This document shows positions 1,193 through 2,004 of a stretch of 64,000 bases of DNA, piece after piece. The notes below the pieces were generated by a model. That model was not told the DNA's origin, ran no database searches, and saw only the letters and a list, made by a program, of their open reading frames with translations. Positions within the stretch are counted from its first letter, which is position 1. The number at the start of each line of letters is the position of its first letter. Both the position numbers and the translations under genes were made by a program. The stretch lies in NCBI RefSeq assembly GCF_022846255.1, contig NZ_AP025682.1; one strand, 5' to 3'. The DNA comes from Escherichia coli (GTDB taxonomy: Bacteria > Pseudomonadota > Gammaproteobacteria > Enterobacterales > Enterobacteriaceae).

Positions 1193-1582
1193 ATGACGAT
1201 GTACGCAAAATCCTTTATTGCATTTGATGGCAACGGGCGTCTGACGGGTGCCCGTACCGCACAGACTGCACCTTACGATCGCTACACTTACCACCTTTGC
1301 GGCAGTGCGCTCAGATACCACCCGCAATACGACACTGAGCGTCCCTGGTTTGAACACACTGACGACGGGCTGACGGAGCACGGTCAGCAGTGCCCTTATG
1401 TCAGACCGGAACGCAGGGAGATACAACTGATTAAGCGTCTGCAGCAATTCGTACCGGATGCCTTACCCGTGGTGCGTAAAGCCAGCCGGCACTGCAGACA
1501 ATGTCATCACGATTATTATGGGGAGCGGTACTGCACGCACTGCCATACCGGGCACTTCAGTGAGGAGGGGGTGGCAGAATGA
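1193..1582 (+). CDS. hypothetical Cys/His-rich protein (putative Zn-ribbon)
   Basis: 129-aa ORF; several CxxC/HxxC pairs; shares motif C-x2-(L/H)...WFEH with the next ORF; start may be ATG 1199 (better SD spacing). Confidence 0.4.
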   Translation: MTMYAKSFIAFDGNGRLTGARTAQTAPYDRYTYHLCGSALRYHPQYDTERPWFEHTDDGLTEHGQQCPYVRPERREIQLIKRLQQFVPDALPVVRKASRHCRQCHHDYYGERYCTHCHTGHFSEEGVAE

Positions 1583-2004
1583 ACGGTATAAAAACGGGGC
1601 TGGGGATCACGCCGGGTGAACACATAATCAGTGCTGATTCTGCACTCAGCAGAAATATCCGGCAGTGTTTCTGCCTTTCCTGTCATGGCCGGTTGATTTT
1701 GCAGACAGATGCTCAGGGGGCATGGTTTGAGCATGATTTATATGCCCTGAGCGAGCAACAGAAGGCAGCCTGCGTGGTGCTGAATCCGGAGAAGTCCCAC
1801 CCTTACATTGAGGATATGGCGATGTTTTTATCGCCATTACCGGTCGTGCTGGAGTGGCATTGTATGATGTGCGAGGGGCTTTTTCATGGGAAGAAGTTCT
1901 GTGAGGCCTGTGGTACGGGGATTTATTGCAGAGCAACATGTACGAAGTATGTTTACAGGTACCAGCCAGATTTGTACCAGGACTGCGGAGGTGCACTCAC
2001 TTAA
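1579..2004 (+). CDS. hypothetical Cys-rich protein, paralog of preceding ORF
   Basis: 141-aa ORF; strong SD GAGGAGGGGG; 4-nt overlap (ATGA) with upstream ORF indicates translational coupling; CxxC pairs and shared WFEH motif. Confidence 0.45.
   Translation: MNGIKTGLGITPGEHIISADSALSRNIRQCFCLSCHGRLILQTDAQGAWFEHDLYALSEQQKAACVVLNPEKSHPYIEDMAMFLSPLPVVLEWHCMMCEGLFHGKKFCEACGTGIYCRATCTKYVYRYQPDLYQDCGGALT

What the first reader, a model, noticed from the sequence alone, without database searches (positions are those of the whole stretch)
1193..2004. Translationally coupled paralogous Cys-rich proteins next to an HUH-type protein
Two ORFs overlap by ATGA. Each has several CxxC/HxxC pairs and both share the motif C-x2-(L/H)-x6-8-D-x4-6-WFEH. 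They follow a YagK/YfjJ-like protein with an HUH endonuclease-like motif. Function unknown; zinc-ribbon DNA- or RNA-binding is plausible.
Basis: seen in the sequence. Interest (0 to 1): 0.4.

Follow-up and report, generated by a model that had tools for sequence, protein, structure and literature searches.

The report
Paired zinc-ribbon genes of island core
Two overlapping, related genes for small zinc-binding proteins belong to a catalogued family whose function has never been tested; together with a Rep-like HUH gene, an AlpA regulator and a previously unannotated structured mRNA leader, they form the conserved core of genomic islands present in about 70% of E. coli genomes.

Summary
ORF1 (probable true start 1199, end 1582) and ORF2 (1579-2004) overlap by ATGA and are paralogues (BLASTP E=3e-10). 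Both are DUF7828 + Zn_ribbon_11 proteins, which RefSeq already names "putative zinc ribbon protein". Both are under purifying selection (dN/dS 0.07-0.33).

The family is small (241 clusters among 1.84 billion representatives) and limited to Enterobacterales. It is absent from the phage records searched and has no detectable solved-structure relative. In more than 15 genera the pair sits in one co-directional module: YagK/YfjJ (HUH intact), AlpA, a ~44-aa zinc ribbon, ZnR1, ZnR2, then a YagK-like paralogue without the HUH motif, followed by variable cargo (BREX, Kiwa, R-M, ars, RND efflux). ZnR1 is conserved and ZnR2 is highly divergent. The two genes overlap in 14 of 17 loci.

An unannotated ~90-nt leader (window 1106-1198) always precedes ZnR1. 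It is more conserved than the proteins and shows covariation for a fold that touches the Shine-Dalgarno sequence.

Function is untested. My best guess is a zinc-dependent, nucleic-acid-binding hetero-oligomer that assists or regulates the AlpA/HUH excision-replication module, with leader-controlled translation. In this window the copy is decaying: ORF1 has lost a zinc ligand (Cys to Tyr) and alpA is a pseudogene.

The parts
228..827 (+). YagK/YfjJ (inovirus Gp2-like) protein, 199 aa, with an HUH motif (H-I-H, residues 89-91) and a Y-L-A-K tyrosine motif. This is the 'Gp2A' gene of the module.
   Evidence: Pfam REP_ORF2-G2P 24.1 bits and YagK_YfjJ_C 23.4 bits, both just under their cut-offs. 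RefSeq names it 'inovirus-type Gp2 protein' / 'YagK/YfjJ domain-containing protein'. The motifs align with K-12 YagK and YfjJ. dN/dS is 0.14-0.58, and 0.28-0.30 in the three comparisons with appreciable divergence.
1106..1198 (+). Conserved non-coding leader directly 5' of ZnR1. The predicted fold has an outer stem CCGCCA/UGGCGG, a middle stem and an inner hairpin (A/G)CUGCCC-GUACC-GGGaC(A/G)GC. The outermost pairs reach the Shine-Dalgarno region.
   Evidence: More conserved than the coding sequence across genera. One copy per locus, always 5' of the 'a'-type gene. The covariance model finds 28 instances. 92.2% of cells are paired, 13 of 22 pairs carry double-sided changes, 0 of 500 shuffles reach the observed value, and slid controls give 25-48%. 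The + strand pairs better than the - strand (92.2 vs 83.2%). No Rfam match. Unannotated in the 30 sampled E. coli records of 3766 genomes that carry it.
1199..1582 (+). ZnR1 ('a' type), 127 aa: DUF7828 N-domain plus a C4 Zn_ribbon_11 domain. In this strain the first zinc-ligand Cys is Tyr (codon 1289-1291, TAC), and the near-invariant Trp before the ribbon is Arg.
   Evidence: Pfam. Orthologues at 61-88% identity in Salmonella, Citrobacter, Klebsiella, Enterobacter, Serratia and other genera. dN/dS 0.07-0.17. The Cys-to-Tyr change is private to this window relative to L001.
1579..2004 (+). ZnR2 ('b' type), 141 aa, same two-domain architecture with all family zinc ligands intact (C32, C35, H52, C65; C95, C98, C108, C111). 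Its start overlaps the ZnR1 stop (ATGA), and GGAGG lies about 10 nt upstream.
   Evidence: Pfam. Conserved columns. AF2 model with pLDDT 88.8. dN/dS 0.13-0.33. Overlap statistics.
2707..2904 (+). alpA pseudogene (internal stop, truncated).
   Evidence: tblastn with AlpA of L021 and L034: 50-55% identity, E about 1e-18. RefSeq annotates the equivalent in L001 as an AlpA-family pseudogene with an internal stop.
2912..3085 (+). Stand-alone mini zinc-ribbon ORF (RWHCAKCRRYYCGNQPCPWC). It is the counterpart of a ~37-44-aa ORF that follows alpA in other genera.
   Evidence: The family profile hits its ribbon part (E = 8e-4, 5e-4). tblastn with the L018 and L021 mini-ORFs gives E=2e-8 and 1e-10. The motif P-x-R-W-x-C-x2-C-x-R-x-Y-C-G-x2-P-C-P-x-C is conserved in L018, L020, L021, L025 and L029 (L007 has a degenerate copy). 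It is not annotated in RefSeq.
3192..3644 (+). Degenerate YagK/YfjJ-like paralogue ('Gp2B') that lacks both the HUH and the tyrosine motif.
   Evidence: tblastn with Gp2B of L021 and L034: 28% identity, E=1e-12 and 1e-10. The alignment shows VIR / ERK / ECK in place of H-x-H and no YLxK. Pfam YagK_YfjJ_C scores 23.2 bits for the L021 homologue.

Best explanation
Shown:
- The two ORFs are genuine, selected, tightly coupled paralogous genes. Each encodes a protein of about 130-140 aa with two predicted zinc sites: an N-terminal DUF7828 domain with a C-x2-C...(W)FEH...C signature, and a C-terminal four-Cys Zn_ribbon_11 domain.
- They form a fixed pair of a conserved 'a' protein (ZnR1) and a rapidly diverging 'b' protein (ZnR2).
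- The pair is embedded in one co-directional core module of genomic islands in Enterobacterales, tRNA-integrated where the island end was seen (tRNA-Phe in the window, tRNA-Leu in L011): YagK/YfjJ HUH protein, AlpA, mini zinc ribbon, structured leader, ZnR1, ZnR2, HUH-less YagK-like paralogue. Variable cargo follows.

Inferred:
- ZnR1 and ZnR2 act together as a hetero-oligomer.
- They bind nucleic acid, either a DNA structure or RNA.
- They serve as accessory or regulatory subunits of the island's AlpA-controlled excision and HUH-dependent replication or mobilisation functions, with ZnR2 supplying element-specific recognition.
- ZnR1 synthesis, and through coupling ZnR2 synthesis, is set by the leader, whose outer helix occludes the Shine-Dalgarno sequence. 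This control may be autogenous, as for T4 gp32, or by translational repression through a leader, as Ff gene V protein does on gene II mRNA.

In this particular window the module is decaying: ZnR1 has Cys31Tyr, alpA has a stop codon, and an IS3-family element lies next to it.

Confidence in identity and context is about 0.95. Confidence in the mechanistic role is about 0.3. The figure given covers the whole statement.
For: Real genes:
- Paralogy E=3e-10.
- Pfam matches far above cut-off.
- dN/dS 0.07-0.33.
- Orthologues occur in more than 15 genera.

Zinc sites:
- Invariant or near-invariant C32, C35, F50, H52, C65 and W93, C95, C98, G104, C108, C111 in 42 diverse members.
- Confident AF2 model, pLDDT 88.8.

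Acting together:
- 'a' and 'b' are adjacent in nearly all loci and overlap by 1-13 nt in 14 of 17.
- A natural single-chain protein carries two DUF7828 units (P0110).
- The 'a' clade is conserved while 'b' is divergent.

Link to AlpA and HUH:
- Same-strand synteny with YagK/YfjJ and AlpA appears in every informative locus, including the most distant single-copy members.
- The same ZnR pair is found behind two unrelated Gp2 variants.
- HUH and tyrosine motifs are kept in Gp2A and lost in Gp2B.

Nucleic-acid binding:
- 14 of 42 members give sub-threshold hits to the CoiA N-terminal zinc finger over the CxxC...WFEH segment.
- CoiA is a DNA-structure nuclease with that finger at its N-terminus.

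Leader control:
- Covariation-supported fold that reaches the Shine-Dalgarno sequence.
- Present only with 'a'-type genes.
- Favours the sense strand.
Against: - There is no experimental datum and no paper on the family.
- Net charge is near neutral, with median pI 7.9, which gives no support for non-specific nucleic-acid binding.
- The CoiA_N similarity is below Pfam's threshold.
- K-12 CP4-57 and CP4-6 carry YfjJ/YagK and AlpA without any DUF7828 gene, so the HUH protein does not strictly need them.
- The heterodimer is inferred only from gene order and one fusion.
- The leader alignment was fitted to the model's structure, single-sequence folding energies are unremarkable (z from 0.3 to -1.4), and the leader's ligand is unknown.
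Confidence: 0.35

Rival explanations
1. They are zinc-finger transcription factors, working like P2 Ogr and P4 Delta. These are small zinc proteins of P2 and P4, and Delta is itself a fused tandem duplicate. On this reading the pair switches on island genes, cargo genes or helper-phage genes by contacting RNA polymerase or promoter DNA.
For: The proteins are small, bind zinc and are tandemly duplicated, and a fused version exists. They sit in islands of the CP4/P4-integrase and AlpA type, directly downstream of alpA in most genera. They lie at the border of the variable cargo. The comparison with Ogr and Delta rests on established knowledge, not on a test made here.
Against: Pfam Ogr_Delta (PF04606) does not appear among the families listed for any member, even at E up to 5. 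No HTH or other DNA-reading module is present. No conserved repeated operator-like sites were found near the module. The family is absent from the 50,697 phage records searched.
Confidence: 0.2
2. They are protein-targeting effectors, for example anti-defence, anti-phage or host-takeover inhibitors. The fast-evolving ZnR2 would track a variable target and ZnR1 would act as a conserved adaptor.
For: ZnR2 is extremely divergent and appears in several unrelated-looking types, whereas ZnR1 is conserved. The genes abut cargo that is often a defence system: BREX, Kiwa, type I R-M, or methylase plus SNF2. Near-neutral charge fits protein-protein rather than polyanion binding.
Against: No PADLOC or PHROG match. 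The genes belong to the conserved backbone, not to the variable cargo, and they accompany non-defence cargo as well (ars operon, RND efflux, sugar-acid catabolism). Within a type, ZnR2 is under purifying selection with no excess of non-synonymous change (dN/dS 0.13-0.33).
Confidence: 0.12
3. They form a toxin-antitoxin-like addiction pair that stabilises the island.
For: The two genes are small, overlapping and co-transcribed, and they sit on a mobile element. This is the classic type II toxin-antitoxin layout.
Against: The partners are paralogues of each other, which is not typical of toxin-antitoxin pairs. No Pfam, NCBIfam or PADLOC toxin or antitoxin domain is present. Single-copy members exist. 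Frameshifted 'b' copies persist beside intact 'a' copies (L013; L016 and L027).
Confidence: 0.05
4. For this window only: the pair is an inactive relic of a once-functional module.
For: ZnR1 carries Tyr at the first zinc-ligand Cys and Arg at the near-invariant Trp. alpA has an internal stop, the gene between ZnR2 and alpA is frameshifted, and an IS3-family element is inserted about 130 bp beyond Gp2B.
Against: ZnR2 is intact with all ligands. Both reading frames are open. The Cys-to-Tyr change is a single recent substitution relative to a 99.8%-identical island. The leader and Shine-Dalgarno sequence are intact.
Confidence: 0.3

Closest known systems
Pfam DUF7828 (PF25165) + Zn_ribbon_11 (PF11682, formerly a DUF), named 'putative zinc ribbon protein' in RefSeq (e.g. 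WP_000270955.1, WP_001610781.1)
   Same: The window proteins are members. Both domains score far above the gathering cut-offs, and near-identical proteins are already in RefSeq.
   Different: Nothing differs. This is the family itself. It has no assigned function and no paper was found for its Pfam names or RefSeq product name in the library searched.
N-terminal zinc finger of the competence nuclease CoiA (Pfam CoiA_N, PF25164)
   Same: It has the same kind of short finger, C-x2-C followed about 15 residues later by an aromatic-x-His motif. 14 of 42 family members hit it over exactly that segment. The finger sits in a protein that acts on DNA structures.
   Different: All hits are below Pfam's cut-off (at most 22.7 bits vs 26.3). 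The ligand set here is C2-H-C rather than the C2H2 described for CoiA. There is no PD-(D/E)XK nuclease domain. The proteins stand alone and carry an extra C4 ribbon.
P2 Ogr / P4 Delta zinc-finger late-gene activators (from established knowledge)
   Same: These are small zinc-binding proteins of P2 and P4. Duplication is a theme: Delta is a covalent tandem dimer, and here there is a tandem gene pair plus a natural fusion (P0110).
   Different: No sequence relationship was detected. The cysteine spacing differs. The family is absent from phage records. This is an analogy only.
Translational repression through mRNA leaders by phage single-strand-binding proteins: zinc-containing T4 gp32 on its own mRNA, and Ff gene V protein on gene II mRNA (from established knowledge)
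   Same: A small (zinc-)protein gene of a replication module is preceded by a conserved leader that could control its translation. The neighbouring gene is related to the inovirus gene II product.
   Different: No homology or fold similarity was found. Binding of ZnR proteins to the leader is untested. This is an analogy only.
Integrase-AlpA-'inovirus Gp2-like'-RadC islands that carry defence cargo (E. coli CP4-57; Pseudomonas tmRNA islands in bioRxiv 10.1101/2024.08.29.610337)
   Same: The backbone genes match (AlpA, Gp2-like/YfjJ, GTPase, WYL, DUF932). Integration is at a tRNA gene here and at the tmRNA gene in those islands. The cargo is variable and often defence-related.
   Different: The described islands, and K-12 CP4-57 and CP4-6, lack the DUF7828 pair, the mini zinc ribbon and the leader (no 'zinc' in the paper).

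Membership tests
DUF7828 (PF25165) | Match to the Pfam model above its gathering score (25.7 bits) | tested here: met
   ORF1 100.1 bits (E=5.7e-29); ORF2 78.6 bits (E=2.8e-22).
Zn_ribbon_11 (PF11682) | Match to the Pfam model above its gathering score (24 bits) | tested here: met
   ORF1 29.2 bits; ORF2 50.6 bits.
DUF7828/Zn_ribbon_11 family | Conserved putative zinc ligands: C-x2-C, FxH and Cys in the N-domain; C-x2-C...C-x2-C in the C-domain | tested here: inconclusive
   ORF2 has all eight. ORF1 has Tyr instead of the first Cys (YTYHLC, against YTCHLC in L001 and all orthologues) but keeps the other seven. Zinc binding itself was not measured.
DUF7828/Zn_ribbon_11 family | Genomic context: same strand as, and next to, YagK/YfjJ-like and AlpA genes in an island | tested here: met
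   Seen in the window and in every informative related locus. In the window the order is permuted and alpA is a pseudogene.
CoiA_N zinc finger (PF25164) / CoiA family | Pfam match above the gathering score (26.3 bits) | tested here: not met
   The best family member scores 22.7 bits (E=6.9e-5). The two window proteins show no listed CoiA_N hit.
CoiA_N zinc finger (PF25164) / CoiA family | Attached PD-(D/E)XK nuclease domain | tested here: not met
   All 241 clusters are proteins of at most 238 aa carrying only DUF7828 and zinc-ribbon domains.
BIR (baculoviral IAP repeat) zinc finger | Significant sequence or fold match; C-x2-C-x16-H-x6-C | tested here: not met
Ogr/Delta zinc-finger activators (PF04606) | Pfam match | tested here: not met
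   Not among the families listed for the window proteins (E up to 1) or in the 25 most-hit families for the 42 members (E up to 5).
HUH endonuclease / YagK-YfjJ (neighbour, 228-827) | Pfam YagK_YfjJ_C or REP_ORF2-G2P above cut-off; HUH motif; catalytic Tyr motif | tested here: inconclusive
   Pfam scores of 23.4 and 24.1 bits fall just below the cut-offs of 25.8 and 27.8. H-I-H and YLAK align with YagK and YfjJ, and the L021 homologue scores 156 bits. Nicking activity was not tested.
Known anti-phage defence or phage protein families | Match to PADLOC or PHROG models | tested here: not met
   No PADLOC hit. PHROG hits have E of at least 0.04. No tblastn hit in 50,697 phage records.
Rfam RNA families (for the leader, 1106-1198) | cmscan match at E up to 1 | tested here: not met
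   No match in window 1-4000 on either strand. No feature is annotated under the leader in the 30 sampled records of 3766 E. coli genomes.

The most novel reading that the evidence does not exclude
ZnR1 and ZnR2 form a zinc-dependent heterodimer that binds RNA or single-stranded DNA. The conserved subunit recognises the structured leader of its own mRNA, an undescribed cis-regulatory RNA class present in about 70% of E. coli genomes. The variable subunit recognises an element-specific origin or hairpin for the domesticated inovirus-type HUH Rep. Together they would govern replication or transfer of the most common family of cargo- and defence-carrying islands in Enterobacterales.
Probability: 0.12. 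Interest if true: 0.7.

Novelty: already known. Interest (0 to 1): 0.4.

Why it matters
About 70% of complete E. coli genomes carry this gene pair: 3852 of 5426 show at least a partial match, with up to 7 places per genome. It always sits at the junction between a conserved island backbone and a hot spot for variable cargo. That cargo includes BREX, Kiwa, restriction-modification, arsenic resistance and, on Klebsiella plasmids, an RND efflux cluster.

No function is known for the pair, for the YagK/YfjJ HUH proteins beside it, or for the leader. If these parts control excision, replication or transfer of the islands, they bear on how defence, virulence and resistance cargo moves among enterobacteria.

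- a defined six-gene module;
- a distinction between a conserved and a variable subunit;
- a covariation-supported leader RNA that can be tested directly with reporter fusions.

Tried and rejected
Protein comparisons that led nowhere:
- The afdb50 fold library was unavailable.
- NCBIfam, PHROGs and PADLOC gave nothing.
- Source names such as 'DNA-directed RNA polymerase beta subunit' and 'ribosomal protein L37AE' are generic zinc-ribbon mis-annotations. The only supporting score is E=0.09.

Literature and collections:
- Literature searches for DUF7828, DUF3279 and PF11682 found 0 papers. Searches for YagK, YfjJ, 'inovirus Gp2' and 'putative zinc ribbon protein' found annotation mentions only.
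- K-12 YagN/YkgV, a 4-nt-overlapping small pair next to intF, were suspected to be members. The family profile does not hit CP4-6 or CP4-57.
- The search for related loci with the 42-sequence alignment failed because no stretch was conserved enough. The ORF1-type alignment worked.
- The degenerate DNA pattern for the leader was too loose in the metagenome scan: 120 stretches returned, only 5 real.

Region and leader analyses:
- Promoter, terminator and repeat scans of 1-3200 gave no convincing sigma-70 promoter for the pair, no operator-like repeats and no Rfam hit.
- RNAalifold on a plain MAFFT alignment recovered only the inner hairpin, with a covariation term of about 0.
- Single-sequence folding z-scores are not significant.
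- Reading the leader as coding was rejected because of 1-2-nt indels and the lack of third-position wobble.
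Full report
**1. The observation**

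The window carries two + strand ORFs, 1193-1582 and 1579-2004, whose stop and start overlap in ATGA. BLASTP of one against the other gives 31% identity over 83 residues, E=3e-10. Both match the same two Pfam families far above threshold: DUF7828 (100.1 and 78.6 bits) and Zn_ribbon_11 (29.2 and 50.6 bits). The paralogy is therefore real.

Three details need correcting:
- ORF1 most likely starts at 1199 (MYAKSF...). RefSeq and every orthologue start there, and the GAGGAA Shine-Dalgarno sequence at 1186-1191 fits that ATG.
- The shared motif is C-x3-L...D-x4-WFEH.
A 99.8%-identical island from another strain has YTCHLC, as do all orthologues.

The upstream ORF 228-827 is a YagK/YfjJ ('inovirus-type Gp2') protein. 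Its Pfam scores lie just under the cut-offs, but RefSeq uses those names. An H-I-H motif and a YLAK tyrosine motif align with K-12 YagK and YfjJ.

**2. They are real genes of a small, catalogued, unstudied family**

The window is Escherichia coli. Its right end is the pheV locus (tRNA-Phe 61022-61097, integrase 59562-60821, then yqgA and speC at 97% identity). The finding therefore lies in a pheV genomic island of at least 61 kb.

RefSeq already annotates the two proteins as 'putative zinc ribbon protein'. Pairwise Nei-Gojobori estimates between island copies give dN/dS of 0.07-0.17 for ORF1 and 0.13-0.33 for ORF2.

The 812-bp region matches 3852 of 5426 complete E. coli genomes, with up to 7 places per genome. 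In 1406 genomes one place covers at least 80% of it.

An exhaustive profile search of 1.84 billion representative proteins finds only 241 clusters at E up to 1e-3. All are proteins of at most 238 aa. Named sources are Escherichia, Salmonella, Citrobacter, Enterobacter, Klebsiella, Edwardsiella and Serratia, plus further genera recovered from genome contigs. The family is absent from 50,697 phage records and rare on plasmids (33 of 72,556 records). It has no NCBIfam, PHROG or PADLOC model, and no paper mentions its Pfam names.

**3. Anatomy of the proteins**

In 42 diverse members the invariant or near-invariant positions (ORF2 numbering) are:
- C32, C35, F50, H52 and C65 in the N-domain;
- W93, C95, C98, G104, C108 and C111 in the C-domain.

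This pattern fits one C2-H-C site and one four-Cys ribbon.

A profile search of PDB sequences returns only BIR domains, at non-significant E-values (at least 0.17). The fold searches do not support that lead, and I reject it.

The best remote relationship is to the N-terminal zinc finger of the competence nuclease CoiA. 14 of 42 members hit Pfam CoiA_N over the CxxC...WFEH segment, but always below threshold (at most 22.7 bits vs 26.3). [quoted passage not shown]

Net charge across the family is near neutral, with median pI 7.9.

**4. The pair**

A neighbour-joining tree of 34 members from 23 loci shows that the first gene of each pair ('a', MYAKSF...) forms one tight clade across genera. The second genes ('b') fall into several very divergent groups. 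E. coli itself carries at least two 'b' types behind the same 'a' type.

The 'a' stop and 'b' start overlap by 1, 4, 10 or 13 nt in 14 of 17 pairs, with a GGAGG-like site upstream. Coupled expression is therefore the rule, although it is inferred, not measured.

One natural protein (P0110, 238 aa) has two DUF7828 units in a single chain and lies after a further 129-aa member. In L007 the 'a' gene has lost its ribbon. The most distant members are single-copy.

I read this as a conserved subunit plus a variable subunit that work together. That reading is an inference.

**5. The neighbourhood**

Twenty loci were recovered from one genome per species. These were analysed together with contigs encoding distant members and a Klebsiella plasmid. 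In the loci with intact flanks, they show one co-directional order:
- YagK/YfjJ-like 'Gp2A' (about 190-200 aa; 156 bits to Pfam YagK_YfjJ_C in L021);
- AlpA;
- a mini zinc-ribbon ORF of about 37-44 aa;
- ZnR1;
- ZnR2;
- a second YagK-like gene, 'Gp2B'.

Gp2A keeps H-x-H and YLxK. Gp2B has lost both.

Upstream, on the other strand, lie backbone genes of CP4-57-type islands: a YfjP/YeeP-like GTPase, WYL, DUF932 and Ag43. Downstream comes variable cargo:
- BREX-1;
- KwaA and type I R-M;
- methylase plus SNF2 plus MmeI-like;
- an ars operon;
- an RND efflux cluster;
- in the window, sugar-acid catabolism genes after an IS3-family element.

In E. coli the order is permuted. The window reads Gp2A (228-827), ZnR1, ZnR2, a frameshifted gene, an alpA pseudogene (2707-2904), the mini zinc ribbon (2912-3085), a Gp2B-like gene (3192-3644), then IS3. 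The same ZnR pair also follows a quite different Gp2A variant in O104:H4.

K-12 CP4-57 and CP4-6 have YfjJ or YagK (and alpA in CP4-57) but no DUF7828 gene. The ZnR genes are therefore a frequent but not obligatory addition.

A similar backbone of integrase, AlpA, Gp2-like and RadC with defence cargo has been described for Pseudomonas tmRNA islands, without zinc-ribbon genes.

**6. A conserved structured leader**

Aligning the DNA 5' of ZnR1 shows that the ~90 nt before the start codon (window 1106-1198) are more conserved across genera than the proteins. There is no codon-like wobble, and 1-2-nt indels occur.

nhmmer finds exactly one copy per locus, always just upstream of an 'a'-type gene on the sense strand. 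It finds none before the single-copy, non-'a' members.

Two sequence groups fold into the same architecture using partly different sequences. In both, an outer stem encloses a hairpin, and the outermost pairs reach the AAGGA Shine-Dalgarno sequence. The outer stems are:
- CCGCCA/UGGCGG in most loci;
- CAGAUACCA/UGGUGUCUG in L023;
- GUUGUAUGAC/GUCGUAUGGC in L028.

A covariance model built on 17 sequences recovers 28 instances. On that alignment:
- 92.2% of cells are paired, against 25-48% when partners are slid;
- 13 of 22 pairs show double-sided changes, against 3-5 in the slid controls;
- none of 500 shuffles reaches the observed values.

67 G-U cells make the sense strand pair better than the antisense strand, 92.2 against 83.2%.

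Several caveats apply. The alignment is fitted to the model. The structure was derived from these sequences. Single-sequence folding energies are ordinary (z from 0.3 to -1.4). RNAalifold on a plain alignment found only the inner hairpin.

The element has no Rfam match. It occurs in 3766 of 5426 E. coli genomes, and no feature is annotated under it in the 30 records listed. I rate it a probable cis-acting mRNA structure (about 0.65) of unknown ligand.

**7. How it most likely works**

Shown:
- two selected, tightly coupled paralogous genes for proteins predicted to bind zinc;
- fixed membership of an AlpA/HUH island core;
- a conserved leader with covariation.

Inferred:
- hetero-oligomer formation;
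- specific nucleic-acid binding, based on the CoiA_N-like finger and the ribbon;
- a role as accessory or regulatory subunits of AlpA-controlled excision and HUH-dependent replication or mobilisation;
- leader-mediated, perhaps autogenous, translational control, by analogy with T4 gp32 on its own mRNA and Ff gene V protein on gene II mRNA.

I give this whole picture about 0.35. The rivals are:
- Ogr/Delta-like transcription activators (0.2);
- protein-targeting effectors with a fast-evolving specificity subunit (0.12);
- a toxin-antitoxin-like pair (0.05).

For this window specifically, the copy may be inactive (0.3). ZnR1 has lost a zinc ligand and the near-invariant Trp, and alpA is a pseudogene.

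**8. Novelty and verdict**

The finding itself is therefore 'already known' and, as a sequence, ordinary.

Three things appear not to be in the literature or databases I could search:
- the six-gene module;
- the distinction between a conserved and a variable subunit;
- the leader RNA.

They make an abundant piece of the E. coli accessory genome experimentally approachable. Interest 0.4.

Noticed in passing
window 1106-1198 (+): A ~90-nt non-coding leader lies directly 5' of ZnR1. It is more conserved across genera than the proteins, shows covariation for a nested-helix fold that reaches the Shine-Dalgarno sequence, has no Rfam match, and occurs in 3766 of 5426 E. coli genomes with no feature annotated in the 30 records listed.
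   Followed up: yes
window 2912-3085 (+); L018 5728-5862, L021 5631-5864, L029 5729-5863: An unannotated stand-alone mini zinc-ribbon ORF (RWxCxxCxRxYCGxxPCPxC, about 37-57 aa) follows alpA in many genera. It is a third zinc-ribbon gene of the module.
   Followed up: partly
window 1289-1291: Codon TAC (Tyr) replaces TGC (Cys) at the first zinc-ligand position of ZnR1. The change is private to this sequence relative to a 99.8%-identical island (L001) and to all orthologues.
   Followed up: yes
window 2707-2904 (+): An alpA pseudogene with an internal stop. The ORF fragments just upstream (about 2190-2625) correspond to a frameshifted hypothetical gene in RefSeq.
   Followed up: partly
window 3192-3644 (+); L021 6906-7454; L034 9900-10466: A second YagK/YfjJ-like gene closes the module. 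It has lost both the HUH and the tyrosine motif, so it looks like a catalytically dead paralogue conserved across genera.
   Followed up: partly
window 3772-5038: An IS3-family (IS2-like) element with a broken first reading frame separates the module from the cargo. RefSeq calls the equivalent 'IS3 family transposase, frameshifted'.
   Followed up: no
window 25774-26946 (-), 59562-60821 (-), 61022-61097 (-): There are two tyrosine integrases. The outer one abuts tRNA-Phe (pheV, followed by yqgA and speC), so the window is a composite pheV island of at least 61 kb. The segment 3-23 kb is poorly represented in 5426 complete E. coli genomes, with at best 41% coverage at 87.6% identity.
   Followed up: partly
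L034 (Klebsiella pneumoniae plasmid NZ_CP110517.1, 66209-84577): The complete module (Gp2, AlpA, ZnR1, ZnR2, Gp2B, DUF2913) sits on large IncFIB/IncHI1B plasmids immediately upstream of an RND efflux cluster that PLSDB flags as a resistance gene.
   Followed up: no
L156 5612-6717: A 129-aa family member is followed, with a 1-nt overlap, by a 238-aa protein with two DUF7828 units and one ribbon (P0110). The cargo there is KwaA (Kiwa) and a type I restriction enzyme.
   Followed up: partly
L014 and L015 (MAGs labelled Collinsella sp. and Bacillota bacterium): Contigs that are 87-88% identical to the E. coli ZnR1 protein are binned into Gram-positive MAGs. This is most likely binning contamination rather than true distribution.
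   Followed up: no
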